Part shown: in pieces, positions 2,714 to 29,794 of the stretch
Layout: every line of letters begins with the position of its first letter
Position numbering within the stretch: position 1 is the stretch's first letter
Virus genome (UHGV): UHGV-0163616
DNA: 35,419 bases
Source: a virus
Strand: one strand, 5' to 3'
The notes under the pieces: generated by a model
The model's input: the letters and a program-made list of their open reading frames with translations, nothing else
The model's database searches: none
Told to the model about the DNA's origin: nothing
Made by a program: the position numbers and the translations under genes

Positions 2714-4711
2714 CTATTCTGACAACGCATCAGACTTAGCCCCCTGCGTCAGAGCGTTAATTGCCTTTTGTGCCTGCTGCATTGCTTTCTCAAAGGCTGT
2801 TGATCCGCGTGGGGTATTTGCCATTCGGAGCATTGCATTTCTGAATGGTTCGCTCTCATAGGCGCGAGTAAGAAGTCCGTAGCTTACTGCTGCGCCAGTT
2901 GTCGCCGGGTTCATTGCCGTCCCATACCCGATAATGAACGGGATGGTTTGCTGCCCTGTTGGTGTTGTTACTGCCGCTTTTGCTGCCTGCTGAGTGGACT
3001 GAAGGTAATTTTTCAATCCTTTCAGATAAGCAGCGTCCTGCCCCTTAAATGTGATGCCAGTCTGGCTTTGCAGGATGTTAAGCTGTCGAAGGAACTGGTC
3101 AGGGGATCCACCTGATTTCTCCATCGCCTTTCCAATGATGCCATTGCGCATTTGCGCCCTGCCAACACGACCAACTGAGTTATACAGTGTCTTAATTTCA
3201 GATTTGTTCTTGCTGAATAGCATGTTATTGACAACTTCCGGCGTCAGATCGCCTTTCATGAGAACATTCTTCAGCCTGGTATTCTTTAGTTTCGCCGCTT
3301 CGTCAGCGTAGACGGCATTGGCCTGCTGATATTTACGGAGAGTATCGTTGCCAAGATTCTGACCAATGGCACCATTGATATCGTCGGTCATCGCCTTGTA
3401 AACGCGCTGAATGGCGGCATCGGAACGGTTTGGTAACACTGGTCGCTCACCCTTCACGTCCATTCTGAACTGGCTGCGCAGATCGCTTAATTGCTTCAAA
3501 TCCAGATTGACCGGACCATCAGGACCAGCATTGCGAACAAGCTCATCACGATATGACTGAAGTTTTGAAATCGTCTCGTTATCAGCGACCTTACCAAGCT
3601 TCTGCAGGTTAGATATCTCAGTATCAATCTGCTGAATTGCTCGTGCAGGTTGAATGTTGACTCCTGCCATTGCATTCTGAATTTGCTCAAGACGGTTCCC
3701 TGCGGCACGCCGAATTCCTGATGTTTTCGCTTTAAGGCTGTCAATAACAACTGCCGGATCGTACTCGCCGAATTTATCAGCAAATCTCTGCACCAACTGA
3801 CTTCTCGCTTCCTGTTGCGTTGCTCTCATTCCGCTTGTGCCAGCCAGGGGGATATTTTCTGCTGTAGTCTGCGCCATTTTCCCGACGCGGGAAGTAGGCT
3901 GTAACAGGTCTGTGGTATGCAGAGGAACTCCTTCACGCTCTGCAAACCTGATAGCCTGTTGAGCTTCTGGTGCTATCGCACCACGAACGCCACGATAAGC
4001 AGCGCCTAATCCACGTCCGGCAGCGTTAATAGCGCCGCCAGCCAGAACGCCAACGCCTAAATCGGTAGCGAGTGCTTCCGCATCATCTTTCGCACTATTT
4101 GCAGCAAGTGACCCGACTGCGTTTTCAGCGAGAAGGCGAGTTGCACCCTGAGCGATTCTACCAGCGAGTGTTGGTGCCTGTGTTGCCGCTCTCTCAATGC
4201 CAGCAGGAGTGAGGTAAGGCAATGCTTCAGCAAATACCCTTCCCTCTGTCGTTTGTGGAGTCAGCGCACCTTGCTGAAGGCCAAAGTCCTGCTCTAATCC
4301 CTGCGTTGTTACTCGTGGTGCTGGTTGATATGTACCATCGCCAATACCGAGTTTACCGCCAGCCCAAGCCGCCGCGCTTGTTACAGCATCGGCAACTGAT
4401 GCAGGTATGTTTGCCACGTTCACGCCAGCCTGCACCAGTCCGCGACCAGTCTCTTTTACTGCTTCACCAAGATCAGACATAAATCCACTTTGCTGTGGTT
4501 GTTGCTGTGCTACTGGTTGTTGTGTCTCCACTGGCTGCACAGATGGCAATGGATAGGCAGCATAGAAAGCTTGCTTAGCCTGCTCTGCATTTTCTCCGGC
4601 TTGCGGGGCCACGACTTCATTGAAGTATTGCTCCTGAGCCTGCGCTTTTTGTTCTGGTGCTAACGCCTGATACTGTGGAGAGGCGATAACATCTTTCCAT
4701 GCTTTAGCCAT
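2714..4711 (-). CDS. Ejection (injection) protein, P22 gp16-like
   Basis: 665 aa, Q/A-rich low-complexity N-terminal region; position and order (gp7-gp20-gp16 then tailspike) as in P22-like phages. Confidence 0.75.
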   Translation of the reverse strand: MAKAWKDVIASPQYQALAPEQKAQAQEQYFNEVVAPQAGENAEQAKQAFYAAYPLPSVQPVETQQPVAQQQPQQSGFMSDLGEAVKETGRGLVQAGVNVANIPASVADAVTSAAAWAGGKLGIGDGTYQPAPRVTTQGLEQDFGLQQGALTPQTTEGRVFAEALPYLTPAGIERAATQAPTLAGRIAQGATRLLAENAVGSLAANSAKDDAEALATDLGVGVLAGGAINAAGRGLGAAYRGVRGAIAPEAQQAIRFAEREGVPLHTTDLLQPTSRVGKMAQTTAENIPLAGTSGMRATQQEARSQLVQRFADKFGEYDPAVVIDSLKAKTSGIRRAAGNRLEQIQNAMAGVNIQPARAIQQIDTEISNLQKLGKVADNETISKLQSYRDELVRNAGPDGPVNLDLKQLSDLRSQFRMDVKGERPVLPNRSDAAIQRVYKAMTDDINGAIGQNLGNDTLRKYQQANAVYADEAAKLKNTRLKNVLMKGDLTPEVVNNMLFSKNKSEIKTLYNSVGRVGRAQMRNGIIGKAMEKSGGSPDQFLRQLNILQSQTGITFKGQDAAYLKGLKNYLQSTQQAAKAAVTTPTGQQTIPFIIGYGTAMNPATTGAAVSYGLLTRAYESEPFRNAMLRMANTPRGSTAFEKAMQQAQKAINALTQGAKSDALSE

Positions 4712-26414: not shown

Positions 26415-26562
26415 GTTTCACTCCTGCTTTGGCTAGTCTGTAAACACCAACAAGGCGCTCTGCGAACGCCCTGTTATTTGCTGCGGCTACCACTAATCCC
26501 TCAGGTGAATCAGGGTGTCGAATCTCTTCTTTTTCCTGGTATTTCTTACGACGTTTTGTCAT
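26401..26562 (-). CDS. Small basic hypothetical protein between cII and the initiator gene
   Basis: 53 aa ORF (MTKRRKKYQEKEEIRHPDSPEGL...) not in the ORF track (under 60 aa); ATG preceded by AGGAG with 7-nt spacing. Confidence 0.4.
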   Translation of the reverse strand: MTKRRKKYQEKEEIRHPDSPEGLVVAAANNRAFAERLVGVYRLAKAGVKHGSR

Positions 26563-26596
26563 AATTACTCCTGTGGATTGATCCAGTCTTTCTACA

Positions 26597-26875
26597 TCAG
26601 GCCTCGAAGAATTCGCCGTTCTTCGGGGCTTTTTCTTTTGTCAGCATTCTGGCTACTTTCTTAGCCAGTTCCGCCAACTCCTCGTCTTCAACACCCCACT
26701 CCAGTACAGCCAGAAGCATGGCCATCTTTGGGATAAAGCTGTCTTTCCATCGCGAAATTTGCGATTCATTGATCCCTAATGCATCAGCAACCTTTCGCTG
26801 ACCACGTACAGCAATTCGATTCAGGATGTTGCTTGTAATTGCATTCGCTTTCTTGCGAGTACTTGTAAGTTCCAT
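26597..26875 (-). CDS. cII: CII-like transcriptional activator
   Basis: 92 aa; core SQISRWK......MLLAVLEWGVEDEELAELAKKVA aligns with lambda CII (SQISRWKRDWIPKFSMLLAVLEWGVVDDDMARLARQVA). Confidence 0.85.
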   Translation of the reverse strand: MELTSTRKKANAITSNILNRIAVRGQRKVADALGINESQISRWKDSFIPKMAMLLAVLEWGVEDEELAELAKKVARMLTKEKAPKNGEFFEA

Positions 26876-26923
26876 ATGTAAGTATTTCCTTAACTAATAA
26901 GAAGTTATGCGCATCAACTTATG

Positions 26924-26967
26924 CGCGTTGTATTCCCGCATTTCGGCGGGAATGAGGACCATGACTG
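26924..26967 (-). promoter_or_regulatory. nutR: boxA (CGCUCUUUAACA) and boxB hairpin (UCCCGC-CGAAAU-GCGGGA)
   Basis: On the minus strand between cro and cII; boxA matches the rrn/P22-type consensus; boxB sequence identical to the nutL copy. Confidence 0.65.
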
Positions 26968-26983
26968 TTAAAGAGCGGTGTTA

Positions 26984-27178
26984 CTATTTGTTTTTCTTGT
27001 TGCTTGGGAAAGGACGAACTTCCTCTCCAATCACACTGCCATCAGGCTTTACCGTAACCATGATGTTACGGCCTGCCAGAATGGCCTTGCTGATAGCGCA
27101 CTGGATTACACCAAAGTCACTGGCTGCTTTAGCCTGTCCATGGATTTTGGCGTAATCGGCAAGTGTCATTCGAATCAT
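26984..27178 (-). CDS. cro: Cro repressor
   Basis: 64 aa from ATG 27178 ([36 protein letters not shown]...[16 protein letters not shown]) aligns with lambda Cro; ORF-track start 27184 is a GTG. Confidence 0.85.
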
Positions 27179-27207
27179 ATGCACTCTCCGTTATTAACCA
27201 TGAACAA

Positions 27208-27278
27208 AGAATACTACAGGTATTCAAAGCAATCAATACTCAGGGTATTTTTAGTTTAAGTACCTTAGCTATTAGAAT
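27208..27278. promoter_or_regulatory. OR region: three 17-bp operators (two perfect 6-5-6 palindromes AATAC-N5-GTATT at 27209-27225 and 27234-27250, a degenerate third at 27258-27274) with divergent PR and PRM
   Basis: PR on minus strand: -35 TTGATT (27231-27236), 17-bp spacer, -10 TATTCT (27208-27213). PRM: TAGAAT at 27273-27278, 6 nt before the cI ATG, implying a leaderless cI mRNA as in lambda. Confidence 0.65.
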
Positions 27279-27284
27279 TAAGCT

Positions 27285-28001
27285 ATGGAAAATAAAAAAT
27301 CACTGACGACAGAACAGCTGGAAGACGCTAAGCGGCTTAAGGCTTTGTATGAGTCAAAAAAGAAAGAATTGGGAATAACCCAATACTCAATCGCTGATGA
27401 ACTGGGTATCACCCAAGGAGCGGTAGGGCATTATCTTAATGGCAGAAATGCGCTAAACGTTGAGGTTGCATCTGGTTTTGCACGATTGTTGCAAGTCTCA
27501 ATTGCTGATTTTAGCCAGTCAATTGCTGCCAAGGTTGCAGAACAGGCAGAAAGCCTTAAGAGCGATGCCAACGTAAGGTATGCAGGGGAATACAGAGCAG
27601 GAAAGAGGTATCCGGTGTTAAGCAGTATCCAGGCTGGCTCGTGGTGTGAAGCATGCGAACCATACACCATTAAAGACATAGATGTTTGGCTTGAGTCTGA
27701 CGCGCATATTCAAGGTAATGCGTTCTGGCTTAAAGTGGAAGGTGATTCAATGACGGCACCGGTTGGGTTAAGCATTCCAGAGGGAACATTCGTTCTTTTC
27801 GATACCGGAAGGGAGGCGATCAACGGCAGCTTGGTCATAGCAAAACTTTCTGACTCTAACGAAGCAACATTCAAGAAGCTGATAATCGACGGCGGAAATA
27901 AATACCTCAAGGGACTTAATCCTGCATGGCCTCTCGTGCCAATCAATGGAAACTGCAAGATTATAGGCGTTGCAATTGAGACAAAACTAAGGCTGGTTTG
28001 A
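27285..28001 (+). CDS. cI: CI repressor (HTH plus S24 LexA-like autocleavage domain)
   Basis: 238 aa; N-terminus resembles lambda CI; C-terminal domain (KRYPVLSSIQAGSWCEACEPYTIKDIDVWL...FWLKVEGDSMTAP...GNCKIIGVAIE) resembles 434 cI; Ala-Gly cleavage site and Ser/Lys dyad context present. Confidence 0.9.
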   Translation: MENKKSLTTEQLEDAKRLKALYESKKKELGITQYSIADELGITQGAVGHYLNGRNALNVEVASGFARLLQVSIADFSQSIAAKVAEQAESLKSDANVRYAGEYRAGKRYPVLSSIQAGSWCEACEPYTIKDIDVWLESDAHIQGNAFWLKVEGDSMTAPVGLSIPEGTFVLFDTGREAINGSLVIAKLSDSNEATFKKLIIDGGNKYLKGLNPAWPLVPINGNCKIIGVAIETKLRLV

Positions 28002-28387
28002 TCACGCAAGGGGCGATTATGGTTGGAACCGCTATAGCAAGCTTTTTGGGGATGTTGGCAATCTCAACAATTTACGGCTTAGCGCATGCTTTTATTGCGA
28101 AATCTCTATCAGAAAAAATAAGCCAGGCTTGGGCGCATAGATCAGCTCGTTTCATGATTCTGGTGATCATGGCAATACAAGGGATATCTGCATTTATCCT
28201 CTATGGATCAAGCTTATACCTATTGTATCAAGGCGCGACATTTACGCCTTACACCAGTGATTACGGAACTCTATACGATGGTAGTGAAGACATCTCTATG
28301 GCTTGGATCATCTTTGGTTTATCTATGGCCGTGTCTGTTGTAGCAGACATCATTAAGGTAATTCTCGTCTTAACCTTCGCTGACTAA
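27998..28387 (+). CDS. Small polytopic membrane protein translationally coupled to cI (occupies the rexAB slot between cI and OL)
   Basis: 129 aa with about 4 hydrophobic helices; ATG overlaps the cI stop (ATGA); no recognisable family from sequence alone. Confidence 0.6.
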   Translation: MITQGAIMVGTAIASFLGMLAISTIYGLAHAFIAKSLSEKISQAWAHRSARFMILVIMAIQGISAFILYGSSLYLLYQGATFTPYTSDYGTLYDGSEDISMAWIIFGLSMAVSVVADIIKVILVLTFAD

Positions 28388-28517
28388 CTCATAATCCCGG
28401 CAGCAATAGCTATCGGGATCCACTTCACATATCCCGCATAAAAAGCACTGAACAAGCAGACACCGAAAAAATAAATATCCTTTGTATTCATTTGCTTATC
28501 ATTATTTCACCAAAAAT

Positions 28518-28560
28518 AAATACCTTGGGTATTTACACAATAAAATACCTACAGTATTCT
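28518..28560 (+). promoter_or_regulatory. OL operators (AAATAC-CTTGG-GTATTT at 28518-28534; AAATAC-CTACA-GTATTC at 28543-28559) overlapping PL
   Basis: Same half-site consensus and 25-bp centre spacing as the OR sites; PL -35 TTTACA (28532-28537), 17-bp spacer, -10 TATTCT (28555-28560), pointing rightward into N. Confidence 0.65.
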
Positions 28561-28605
28561 TTAGCCATCAGCAGGACGCTGGAAGCCAAACGGAACAGAT
28601 TGGCA

Positions 28606-28647
28606 GGCTCTTTAACATTGATGGGATTGTCCCGCCGAAATGCGGGA
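28606..28647 (+). promoter_or_regulatory. nutL: boxA (GGCUCUUUAACA) and boxB hairpin (UCCCGC-CGAAAU-GCGGGA)
   Basis: Located between PL and N; boxB identical to the nutR copy. Confidence 0.65.
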
Positions 28648-28754
28648 ACCAAAGAGTAGTTGGCTTTGGGGTGACGTGAAGTGCAGCTGCACGACGGCAA
28701 CCGGAAGATAAGCACCCGGCGCGTCACCGCCAAAGTCAATCATCGGAGGTCAAC

Positions 28755-29027
28755 ATGACAGTAGTCATTACATATCTGGCTGACGATAACGCCAGAAATC
28801 GCCGCAGAGCACGCAGACAGGCTCAACGTGAGCAGGCAATGCAAGAACAGCGACTGGCGCGAAAAATTGCGCTAAAGCTCTCTGGTTGCGTCAGAGCAGA
28901 CAAAGCAGCTTCACTCGGAAGCCTTCGCTGCAAGAAGGTAGATGAATGCAGTGGAAGTATTTGCCTGCCAAACGTAGCTCTTTACGCGGCAGGCTACCGG
29001 AAATCAAAACAACTGACAGCGAGGTGA
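28755..29027 (+). CDS. N: N-type transcription antiterminator (P22 gp24-like) with arginine-rich motif
   Basis: 90 aa; ARM NARNRRRARRQAQREQ; C-terminus PNVALYAAGYRKSKQLTAR resembles the P22 gene 24 C-terminus; GGAGG Shine-Dalgarno; downstream of nutL. Confidence 0.8.
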   Translation: MTVVITYLADDNARNRRRARRQAQREQAMQEQRLARKIALKLSGCVRADKAASLGSLRCKKVDECSGSICLPNVALYAAGYRKSKQLTAR

Positions 29028-29048
29028 CGATCCCCCGCCGTCGAGGAA

Positions 29049-29588
29049 CTAAATTAGCTCATCAGCTTTACCAGCAAAGCGCATATAACACTCATGGAAC
29101 CAGACGTCAGGTATAACAAATTTCTCTTTACCTGACGCGCTGTAAGTCACACCTGAGCGATGGAGAAGACCTTTTCTCATAAGAGATAAAGCGACCGGAT
29201 CGCCGTGCTTAAGTACGATTTTGTTATTTGCCATAACAGCAAATGCTAAAACCTCTTTTTCCTGAATACTCAGAGAATTGAACAGGCGCTCAGTCTCCAC
29301 AATTACTTTAGCCTCATCTCTCTTACTGAGATATTTTTTATATCTGTCTGAAGATGCCAGAAATATAAACTCCATCACCCTGTTCAGAACATAACTGATA
29401 CACAAAAGCATTGCGTAATACATCCAGTGATCTGGAAGTATTTCGGGGTTCCTTATATCTACCCACTCTTTAATTGATGCTGGGGTGATTATTATCAAGG
29501 CAATTAAAATAATAAGCATATGAATTAACTGTTGTAGCGTAAGACCACGCAGGAAGAAACGTAATAGTTCCTGCCACCAGTTACTCAT
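29049..29588 (-). CDS. Membrane-anchored protein, candidate superinfection-exclusion/abortive-infection protein (SieB-like by size, topology and position)
   Basis: 179 aa; two N-terminal hydrophobic helices then a soluble domain; convergent with N, so expressible in the lysogen independently of PL; AT-rich. Family assignment not verified. Confidence 0.55.
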   Translation of the reverse strand: MSNWWQELLRFFLRGLTLQQLIHMLIILIALIIITPASIKEWVDIRNPEILPDHWMYYAMLLCISYVLNRVMEFIFLASSDRYKKYLSKRDEAKVIVETERLFNSLSIQEKEVLAFAVMANNKIVLKHGDPVALSLMRKGLLHRSGVTYSASGKEKFVIPDVWFHECYMRFAGKADELI

Positions 29589-29794
29589 CGGTGAATCTCC
29601 ATCATTCTCTCTGTAGGGGTGAATAGAGTTTATCCGATTTCTCGCTGTAGGGGTACACGAGAACCACCGAGCCTGATGTGGTTAAAAGACAGGCACAATC
29701 TTTACTACCGCAAGCCACGCAGTGAAATGGGGGTGACTTGTGTTGGTCGCCAGAAAATGAAATTAGGCAGCAAACCACTTATTTGAGGTGATAT

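What the first reader, a model, noticed from the sequence alone, without database searches (positions are those of the whole stretch)
27998..28387. Orphan 4-helix membrane protein translationally coupled to cI, in the slot where lambda carries rexA-rexB
The ORF start overlaps the cI stop (ATGA) and sits between cI and the OL/PL operators, so it must be co-transcribed with the repressor from PRM in the lysogen. That is the classic location of prophage-encoded exclusion or abortive-infection cargo (lambda rexAB). The product is a 129-aa polytopic membrane protein with no obvious family and no RexA-like partner. This is my best candidate in the window for an undescribed lysogen-expressed defence or exclusion function.
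Basis: partly seen in the sequence, partly recalled or inferred. Interest (0 to 1): 0.7.

Follow-up and report, generated by a model that had tools for sequence, protein, structure and literature searches.

The report
hkaS: repressor-linked prophage membrane protein
The ORF is a real, conserved gene (hkaS of phage HK620) for a small three-helix inner-membrane protein that sits just after the prophage repressor, in a slot where related phages carry known anti-phage genes. It is a reasonable but untested candidate for a phage-exclusion function.

Summary
The ORF is real but partly misdescribed. The overlap with the cI stop is TTGA, not ATGA. Related loci show that the true start is the ATG at 28019, 17 nt after cI, with its own Shine-Dalgarno. 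The product is 122 aa with three predicted membrane helices, not four.

It is gene hkaS ('unknown') of coliphage HK620, sequenced in 2001, and matches PHROG 6534 (no function). It has no Pfam, NCBIfam, PADLOC, PDB or informative fold match and no similarity to RexB.

The family is a small orphan confined to Enterobacterales prophages, always directly after an HK620-type cI. It occurs in 146 of 5426 complete E. coli genomes, matching that cI in count. It is under purifying selection (dN/dS about 0.17-0.2).

The positional argument holds. The layout cI-hkaS-stem-loop-OL/PL-nutL-N matches the lambda rexAB slot. In a Cronobacter prophage with an 87%-identical cI, the stretch from the cI stop to OL3 instead carries the proven defence gene BstA. 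Other cI relatives carry other cargo. So hkaS is exchangeable cargo of the repressor operon, not part of the switch.

No data test its function. My best guess is a lysogen-expressed inner-membrane phage-exclusion factor. Interest is moderate.

The parts
27209..27274 (.). OR1 (27209-27225), OR2 (27234-27250) and OR3 (27258-27274) operators with divergent PR/PRM
   Evidence: Transferred from the HK620 annotation (window = L001 + 24699). The sites match AAATACnnnnnGTATTT at 9-11 of 12 positions.
27285..28001 (+). cI repressor, 238 aa, stop TGA at 27999-28001
   Evidence: Pfam HTH_3 + Peptidase_S24. One amino-acid difference from HK620 cI. HK620 annotation.
28008..28013 (+). Shine-Dalgarno AAGGGG of hkaS, 5 nt before the ATG
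   Evidence: Sequence. An equivalent AAGGA/AAGGGG-type site lies before the ATG in all lineages.
28019..28387 (+). hkaS coding sequence: 122 aa, three transmembrane helices, predicted N-out/C-in
   Evidence: Start codon supported by related loci, by the HK620 annotation and by PHROG 6534 aligning to residues 8-129 of the 129-aa ORF. AlphaFold2 pLDDT 89.8 with helices 2-29, 41-74 and 89-121. Hydropathy and charge distribution. dN/dS 0.17.
28394..28419 (+). Stem-loop just after the hkaS stop; putative 3' end or terminator element of the cI-hkaS transcript. It has no U-tract.
   Evidence: RNA fold of 28385-28470 (-15.3 kcal/mol for the whole 86-nt stretch). A stem-loop is predicted at the same position, with a different sequence, in the Salmonella-type locus (L003), and in the Hafnia-type locus (L008) with a similar sequence. 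The terminator consensus scan did not detect it.
28473..28489 (.). Probable OL3 (AAATATCCTTTGTATTC); right-hand edge of the cargo slot
   Evidence: 10 of 12 match to the operator consensus. Identical in the Salmonella loci. A site at the same 45-bp spacing from OL2 is present in K. aerogenes L016. Homology with the BstA-carrying locus L020 resumes at 28466.
28518..28560 (+). OL2 (28518-28534), OL1 (28543-28559) and PL (-35 TTTACA, -10 TATTCT; 28532-28560)
   Evidence: HK620 annotation, consensus match and promoter scan.
28755..29027 (+). Antiterminator N, first gene of the PL operon
   Evidence: Pfam N_peptide E 4.6e-16, PHROG 271 and HK620 annotation.

Best explanation
hkaS is an accessory ('moron') gene of the HK620-type immunity module. 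It is transcribed with cI from PRM in the lysogen, and from PRE during establishment, and is translated from its own ribosome-binding site 17 nt after the cI stop. The product is a 122-aa inner-membrane protein with three helices (N terminus out, C terminus in).

I think it most likely makes the lysogen refractory to superinfecting, heteroimmune phages by acting at the cytoplasmic membrane. The most probable single mechanism is interference with genome entry across the inner membrane, as with the small stand-alone membrane proteins T4 Imm, P22 SieA and HK97 gp15.

Shown here: the gene is real, is under purifying selection, is always directly downstream of cI, occupies the cI-stop-to-OL3 cargo slot, and is replaced in related prophages by BstA or other cargo.
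Predicted: membrane topology.
Inferred: co-transcription with cI, any anti-phage activity, and the mechanism.

My confidence that it is some kind of phage-exclusion or defence factor is about 0.55. For the entry-block mechanism specifically it is about 0.3. The figure given below is a compromise between the two.
For: - Real gene with a conserved ATG and SD; dN/dS 0.17-0.2.
- Same strand as cI, with a 17-22 nt gap in every one of 13 loci from seven genera.
- The consensus scan found no promoter-like or terminator-like site between cI and hkaS.
- A stem-loop and then OL follow it. The HK620 authors placed tIMM after it.
- Same slot as lambda rexAB.
- In L020 (cI 87% identical), homology to the window stops at the cI stop (27999) and resumes at 28466. 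The intervening DNA carries BstA (PADLOC 3.9e-20, KilA-N) plus a P63C protein.
- Other cI relatives carry a ParA-like ATPase, a 320-aa unknown protein, or an opposite-strand 128-aa ORF.
- PMC8585504 describes the cI-N region as a mosaic hotspot holding the abortive-infection systems RexAB and BstA. PMC2629481 notes unknown genes downstream of the epsilon34 repressor 'like rexA and rexB'.
- Three predicted transmembrane helices with a positive-inside loop 1. From established knowledge, not tested here: stand-alone small inner-membrane prophage proteins with a known function are mostly entry blockers.
Against: - There is no direct evidence of any anti-phage activity.
- No match to PADLOC, Pfam or NCBIfam, and no PHROG with a known function.
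- No informative structural neighbour.
- No paper on its function was found.
- The invariant residues sit on the cytoplasmic side: loop 1 and the start of TM2, D110/K113 in TM3, and the C-terminal VLTFAD. The periplasmic loop is the least invariant region, 3 of 24 positions. That fits an entry blocker less obviously than a protein with a conserved cytoplasmic partner would.
- The characterised cargo of this slot (RexAB, BstA) acts by abortive infection, not entry block.
- The only lysogen phenotypes found, for phage Hf4s, showed no post-adsorption exclusion of DT57C, G7C or phiKT. However, the Hf4s record has a frameshifted hkaS, so those data are uninformative.
Confidence: 0.4

Rival explanations
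1. Abortive-infection effector. HkaS sits inert in the inner membrane of the lysogen. When an infecting phage perturbs the membrane, or supplies or alters a cytoplasmic partner, HkaS oligomerises and depolarises or permeabilises the membrane. This kills the cell before phage release. It would act like RexB or a holin, but without an adjacent RexA-like sensor.
For: - Same slot as RexAB and BstA, both abortive-infection systems.
- Its three-helix N-out/C-in topology is that of class I holins such as lambda S (topology; the holin comparison is from established knowledge).
- Invariant intramembrane polar residues Q54, D110 and K113, and a conserved cytoplasmic amphipathic loop that could receive a signal.
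Against: - No similarity to RexB (hhalign probability 0.3%).
- No holin or lysis family match. The only lysis-category PHROG row was an amidase at E 0.12.
- No charged C-terminal tail of the kind holins have; the protein ends at VLTFAD.
- No sensor gene in the slot: hkaS is the only conserved ORF between cI and OL.
- Only about 17 cytoplasmic loop residues are available for sensing.
Confidence: 0.2
2. Lysogenic-conversion factor unrelated to phages. This would be a small membrane protein that improves host fitness (stress, bile or acid tolerance, colonisation, transport modulation). That would pay for prophage carriage, as Bor and Lom do in lambda.
For: - Inferred expression in the lysogen.
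- Found in gut Enterobacterales from many animal and human sources, and in 146 of 5426 complete E. coli genomes.
- Purifying selection.
- Nothing ties it to a particular virion type. The module occurs in P22-like, lambda-like, HK97-like and Stx phages.
Against: - The characterised occupants of this slot are anti-phage systems.
- The direct replacement partner in a related prophage is BstA.
- No similarity to any known fitness or virulence factor.
Confidence: 0.15
3. Component of the phage's own lysis-lysogeny circuitry. For example, it could modulate a membrane protease such as FtsH/HflKC, or the timing of induction, as has been proposed for lambda RexA/RexB in the transition to lytic growth.
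For: - Matching counts with one cI type in E. coli: 146 genomes and 147 places for each. Co-inheritance with that cI across seven genera.
- It would also be made from PRE during establishment (pRE in the HK620 annotation).
- A conserved cytoplasmic face.
- bioRxiv 10.1101/2021.04.19.439022 reports a switch-related role for RexAB (title and abstract only).
Against: - Close relatives of the same cI (87% identical, same operator half-sites) work with BstA or other cargo instead of hkaS, so the switch does not need it.
- The phage Hf4s record carries a frameshifted hkaS, yet Hf4s is reported to lysogenise normally.
- The linkage is explained by the 17-nt distance from cI.
Confidence: 0.1
4. Non-functional or mis-called ORF: a chance reading frame in the cI 3' untranslated region.
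For: No known domain. It is hydrophobic and slightly AT-rich. Between the window and HK620, 6 of 8 nucleotide differences change the amino acid.
Against: - The frame is open at 121-122 codons in eight lineages down to 51% identity, with a conserved start, SD and C terminus.
- dN/dS is 0.17-0.2 where synonymous sites are near saturation.
- The close-range replacements are conservative swaps in membrane helices (L/F, M/I, I/V, S/T).
Confidence: 0.03

Closest known systems
Lambda RexB (with RexA), the cI-rexA-rexB operon
   Same: Same genomic slot (between cI and OL/PL, on the cI strand), inferred expression from PRM/PRE, and a small polytopic inner-membrane protein.
   Different: No sequence relationship (hhalign probability 0.3%). 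Three helices and 122 aa, against 144 aa and four reported helices in RexB. No RexA-like partner: hkaS is the only gene in the slot.
BstA (prophage BTP1 and relatives)
   Same: Sits directly downstream of the prophage repressor. In Cronobacter locus L020 it occupies exactly the interval that hkaS fills in the window, next to an 87%-identical cI.
   Different: BstA is a soluble KilA-N DNA-binding abortive-infection protein with an aba self-immunity element (PMC8585504). HkaS is a membrane protein with no PADLOC or Pfam match.
Stand-alone inner-membrane superinfection-exclusion proteins (T4 Imm, P22 SieA, HK97 gp15, Tuc2009 Sie2009)
   Same: Small, single-gene, polytopic membrane proteins. The prophage-encoded ones are expressed from the prophage (T4 Imm is made by a lytic phage). 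This is the protein type HkaS most resembles.
   Different: No sequence match. The PHROGs and Pfam scans at E up to 1 returned no exclusion family. These genes sit at other genome positions (immI/ant moron, tail region). A block of DNA entry has not been tested for HkaS.
SieB (present in this window at 29049-29588, minus strand)
   Same: A lysogen-expressed, membrane-associated exclusion protein of lambdoid phages, encoded beside the immunity region.
   Different: Unrelated sequence. It lies on the other side of N and on the opposite strand. HkaS does not match Pfam SieB.
Class I holins (e.g. lambda S105)
   Same: Three transmembrane helices with N-out/C-in topology and similar size.
   Different: Not in the lysis cassette, no charged C-terminal tail, and no holin family match.

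Membership tests
HkaS / PHROG 6534 (function unknown) | Full-length sequence match to the family profile | tested here: met
   phrog_6534 E 5.2e-78; residues 8-129 align to profile positions 1-122 of 122. 95% identical to HK620 HkaS.
HkaS / PHROG 6534 (function unknown) | Position directly downstream of an HK620-type cI, upstream of OL/PL | tested here: met
   All 13 related loci examined. 146 of 5426 E. coli genomes for hkaS and for that cI, 147 places each.
Repressor-operon cargo of the lambdoid cI-N hotspot | Lies between the cI stop and OL on the cI strand, with no intervening promoter or terminator | tested here: met
   17-nt gap. The consensus scan finds no site between cI and hkaS. A stem-loop and OL3 follow. 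Transcription itself was not measured.
Repressor-operon cargo of the lambdoid cI-N hotspot | Cargo is exchanged between phages that share the flanking cI and operators | tested here: met
   L020 has BstA + P63C between the same boundaries (27999 and 28466 in window coordinates). L021, L022 and L023 carry other cargo.
Lambda RexB | Sequence homology to RexB | tested here: not met
   hhalign probability 0.3%, E 0.21, over 13 columns.
Lambda RexAB system | Adjacent RexA-like sensor gene | tested here: not met
   hkaS is the only conserved ORF between cI and OL. The 35-aa minus-strand ORF is not conserved.
BstA | KilA-N domain plus BstA C-terminal domain | tested here: not met
   No Pfam or PADLOC match for HkaS. 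The L020 slot protein run as a comparison does match.
SieB (PF14163) | Match to the Pfam SieB profile | tested here: not met
   No match for HkaS. The neighbouring gene at 29049-29588 matches at 3e-20.
Entry-blocking Sie proteins (Imm, SieA, gp15) | Sequence membership in one of those families | tested here: not met
   The PHROGs and Pfam scans at E up to 1 gave no exclusion family.
Entry-blocking Sie proteins (Imm, SieA, gp15) | Blocks phage DNA entry after normal adsorption, and the cell survives | not testable with these tools
   Needs infection assays.
Class I holin | Three transmembrane helices, N-out/C-in | tested here: met
   AlphaFold2 helices 2-29, 41-74 and 89-121. Loop 1 has 4 K/R; loop 2 has 4 D/E and no K/R. 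This is a prediction only.
Class I holin | Charged cytoplasmic C-terminal tail, position in the lysis cassette, holin family match | tested here: not met
   The protein ends at VLTFAD directly after TM3. It lies in the immunity region. No holin hit.

The most novel reading that the evidence does not exclude
HkaS is the founding member of a new, sequence-orphan family of single-gene prophage defence proteins. In this reading, a three-helix membrane protein works without any dedicated sensor. It would act either as a RexB/holin-like 'membrane fuse' that aborts infection or as a new kind of entry block. The conserved cytoplasmic face (K33-F45, D110/K113, C-terminal VLTFAD) would be the functional interface, and the gene would be interchangeable with BstA behind the same repressor. 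It would then be a defence gene present in about 2.7% of complete E. coli genomes, including Stx2c-converting phages, that current defence-annotation tools miss.
Probability: 0.15. Interest if true: 0.65.

Novelty: new member of a known kind. Interest (0 to 1): 0.4.

Why it matters
If HkaS excludes phages, it would add a very small, sensor-less membrane protein to the list of prophage defences. It would also show that the stretch from the cI stop to OL3 in HK620-type immunity modules is a swap site where a membrane protein and BstA are alternatives.

The gene is easy to test. It is carried by long-studied and sequenced phages, including HK620, HK630 and mEpX2; the PV340544.1 record lists E. 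coli K-12 MG1655 as the host of mEpX2. It also occurs in 146 of 5426 complete E. coli genomes and in Stx2c-converting phages, so any effect on phage susceptibility or membrane physiology would bear on phage therapy and on Stx-phage ecology.

If it has no phenotype, it stays one more conserved prophage ORF of unknown function.

Tried and rejected
- **TTG/ATGA-coupled start:** rejected. The junction is TTGA. The TTG is out of frame in the Hafnia-type loci and is blocked by an in-frame TAA in the Salmonella-type loci.
- **Four-helix topology:** rejected by hydropathy and the AlphaFold2 model.
- **Homology searches gave nothing beyond the family itself:**
  - Pfam: only a sub-threshold TssN hit, E 0.038.
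  - NCBIfam and PADLOC: no match.
  - PDB sequence profile: no match.
  - Word-indexed search of 5.8 billion proteins: 11 clusters, all the same family.
  - Exhaustive profile search of 1.84 billion representatives: the family, one fragment, and a spurious repeat hit in a 5949-aa protein.
- **RexB relationship:** rejected.
- **The 35-aa hydrophobic minus-strand ORF at 28384-28491 as a partner or toxin:** rejected. It is 10-12 codons long in other lineages. The conserved DNA there is the probable OL3.
- **Obligatory functional coupling of hkaS to cI:** rejected, because cI relatives carry BstA or other cargo instead.
- **Insertions seen in HK140, 611R6 and the Stx2c phages:** in the two annotated records they lie between nutL and N, not in the cI-hkaS block. 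The Stx2c record carries no annotation in this stretch and I did not align it.
- **Hf4s lysogen phenotypes as a functional test:** rejected, because the Hf4s record has a 1-nt deletion that truncates HkaS.
- **Literature searches** for hkaS, HK620 exclusion, mEpX2 and cI-linked membrane proteins found no functional study. Brenes & Laub 2025 (Cell Host Microbe 33:1004) could not be read.

Full report
**What is at the coordinates**

The + strand carries cI at 27285-28001 (HTH_3 + Peptidase_S24), followed by an ORF listed from TTG 27998 to 28387. Cro and cII lie on the minus strand to the left. N (28755-29027, Pfam N_peptide) and SieB (29049-29588, minus strand) lie to the right.

The stretch 26553-29025 is 98.6% identical to the immunity region of coliphage HK620. 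The same region occurs in HK630, mEpX2, HK140, HF4s, HZ41, phi296/phi367, 611R6 and two Stx2c-converting phages. In the HK620 record the ORF is gene hkaS, 'unknown', annotated from an ATG as 122 aa. The record then places tIMM, OL3-OL1, pL and nutL before N. The rest of the window is a P22-like genome.

**Corrections to the observation**

- The junction reads GTTTGATC, so the overlap is TTGA, not ATGA.
- In the Hafnia-type loci the TTG is out of frame with the gene.
- In the Salmonella-type loci cI ends in TAA, and an in-frame TAA directly precedes the ATG.
- The conserved start is therefore ATG 28019, with AAGGGG at 28008-28013, 17 nt after the cI stop. The gap is 17-22 nt in all lineages.
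- The product is 122 aa.
- Hydropathy shows three hydrophobic segments (3-27, 45-70, 95-120). Loop 1 (28-44) has four K/R. Loop 2 (71-94) has four D/E and no K/R. This predicts N-out/C-in.
- AlphaFold2 (pLDDT 89.8, pTM 0.77) gives three long helices, a short amphipathic helix in loop 1 and a small beta-hairpin in loop 2.
- So the protein has three helices, not four.

**Is it a real gene?**

Yes. The frame, start, ribosome-binding site and C terminus are kept in eight lineages from Escherichia, Salmonella, Enterobacter, Hafnia, Klebsiella aerogenes, Citrobacter koseri and Cronobacter sakazakii, down to 51% identity.

dN/dS is 0.17 for window versus Hafnia-type, and about 0.2 for Salmonella-type versus Hafnia-type, where synonymous sites are near saturation. 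It evolves faster than its cI: 59% against 86% identity, and 80% against 95%.

Invariant residues cluster in three places:
- the cytoplasmic loop 1 and start of TM2 (K33, Q36, W38, H40, A43, R44, F45);
- Q54, D110 and K113 within the membrane;
- the C-terminal VLTFAD.

The periplasmic loop is the least invariant region, 3 of 24 positions.

**Family and relatives**

The only family match is PHROG 6534, of unknown function (E 5e-78). The following found nothing beyond the family itself:
- Pfam, NCBIfam and PADLOC;
- a PDB sequence profile;
- a word-indexed search of 5.8 billion proteins;
- an exhaustive profile search of 1.84 billion representatives.

**Context**

In all 13 related loci examined, the gene follows an HK620-type cI directly and precedes OL/PL and N. 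Among 5426 complete E. coli genomes, hkaS and this cI type each occur in 146 genomes at 147 chromosomal places.

The consensus scan found no promoter-like or terminator-like site between cI and hkaS. That scan is insensitive, since it missed PR and PRM as well. A stem-loop follows the stop codon (28394-28419). The Salmonella-type locus L003 has a stem-loop in the same place with a different sequence, and the Hafnia-type locus L008 has one with a similar sequence.

Then come operator-like sites at 28473-28489, 28518-28534 and 28543-28559, and the PL hexamers. The order cI-cargo-OL-PL-nutL-N is that of lambda cI-rexA-rexB. Co-transcription with cI from PRM and PRE is therefore a sound inference, but nothing here measures it.

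**The most informative result**

I searched for relatives of cI and looked at what follows them. A Cronobacter turicensis prophage has a cI 87% identical to the window's. Its similarity to the window ends at the cI stop (27999) and resumes at 28466, in the OL3 region. In between it carries BstA (KilA-N; PADLOC BstA 3.9e-20) and a P63C protein.

More distant cI relatives (74-76% identity) carry other cargo:
- a ParA-like AAA_31 ATPase in K. pneumoniae;
- a 320-aa unknown protein in E. coli;
- a 128-aa ORF on the opposite strand in Enterobacter.

The interval from the cI stop to OL3 is thus a cassette site, and hkaS is one of several alternative cargos. This agrees with published statements that the cI-N region is a mosaic hotspot holding RexAB and BstA (PMC8585504), and that epsilon34 has unknown genes behind its repressor 'like rexA and rexB' (PMC2629481). 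It also shows that the cI/Cro switch does not need hkaS.

**Function**

Nothing tests it. No paper on hkaS function was found. Hf4s lysogens showed no post-adsorption exclusion of DT57C, G7C or phiKT. However, the Hf4s record has a 1-nt deletion in the A6 run at 28113-28118 that truncates HkaS after residue 33, so those data say nothing.

My best explanation is a lysogen-expressed inner-membrane phage-exclusion factor (about 0.55 for defence of any kind). I marginally favour an entry block (about 0.3), because stand-alone small inner-membrane prophage proteins of known function are mostly of that type. An abortive-infection 'membrane fuse' is the main rival (about 0.2). It fits the slot's known occupants, the holin-like topology and the conserved cytoplasmic face. 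Host-fitness conversion (0.15) and a role in the phage's own switch (0.1, weakened by the BstA replacement) remain possible. A chance ORF is excluded.

**Novelty and verdict**

The ORF has been named since 2001, and the idea that this slot holds exclusion cargo is established. What is new here:
- the corrected gene model and topology;
- the delimitation of a small orphan family tied to one repressor clade;
- the exact cassette exchange with BstA.

It is a legitimate and easily testable defence candidate, not a demonstrated new system. Interest is 0.4. I class it as a new member of a known kind (repressor-operon cargo), with a roughly 15% chance of being a distinct single-protein membrane defence family.

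Noticed in passing
window 28384-28491 (minus strand): A 35-aa hydrophobic ORF lies convergent with hkaS and is annotated as a CDS in phage HF4s (HF4s_0039). In the Salmonella- and Hafnia-type loci the frame is only 10-12 codons long. It is a chance ORF lying over the OL3 region.
   Followed up: yes
window 28473-28489 versus 28496-28512: The OL3 annotated in the HK620 record maps to 28496-28512 (TTATCATTATTTCACCA) and fits the operator consensus poorly. AAATATCCTTTGTATTC at 28473-28489 matches 10 of 12 positions and is identical in the Salmonella loci. A counterpart with the same 45-bp spacing from OL2 is present in K. aerogenes L016. OL3, and the 'tIMM' feature that overlaps it, are probably mis-placed in the record.
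   Followed up: partly
window 28113-28118 (A6 run inside hkaS); L012: This homopolymer is a frameshift site. The HF4s record has A5, which truncates HkaS after residue 33. P0013 is another truncated form. P0005, P0008 and P0009 have frameshifted N termini that rejoin the frame further on. I did not resolve whether these are sequencing errors or real inactivation.
   Followed up: partly
L020 3293-5127 (Cronobacter turicensis prophage): BstA (KilA-N + BstA C-terminal domain) and a P63C-domain protein fill the slot between an 87%-identical cI and OL. A strong intrinsic terminator follows bstA.
   Followed up: partly
L021 3450-4469; L023 3268-4230; L022 3249-3635 (minus strand): Other cargo sits behind related cI genes: a 339-aa ParA-like AAA_31 ATPase in K. 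pneumoniae, a 320-aa protein with no family in E. coli, and a 128-aa opposite-strand ORF in Enterobacter. None matches PADLOC. These are further candidates from the same slot.
   Followed up: partly
window 29025-29700: A mosaic boundary falls right after N. HK620 has hkaQ and hkaP there, whereas the window has a different SieB gene (29049-29588, minus strand; Pfam SieB 3e-20, PHROG 1301).
   Followed up: partly
P0014 residues about 4028-4055: A 5949-aa T/A/G/V/D-rich protein contains a repeated motif (ATFQTYSSGYTTLY) resembling the HkaS periplasmic loop (ATFTPYTSDYGTLY). It matched in 9 stretches at E 4e-7. This is probably compositional or a beta-hairpin repeat, not homology.
   Followed up: partly
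window 28482-28679 (+): The ORF annotated in HK630 as HK630_043 'hypothetical protein' runs across OL, PL and nutL boxA. It is very likely spurious.
   Followed up: no
window 28173-28189: An operator-like 17-mer (CAATACAAGGGATATCT, 9 of 12) lies inside hkaS. It is probably chance.
   Followed up: no
window 1-25000: The virion and replication genes are P22-like (Lederbergvirus-like), 95-97% identical in patches to phages 720R6, phiv205-1, Kapi1 and CUS-3. No phage record covers more than 63% of this stretch, so the window is a new mosaic carrying HK620 immunity.
   Followed up: no
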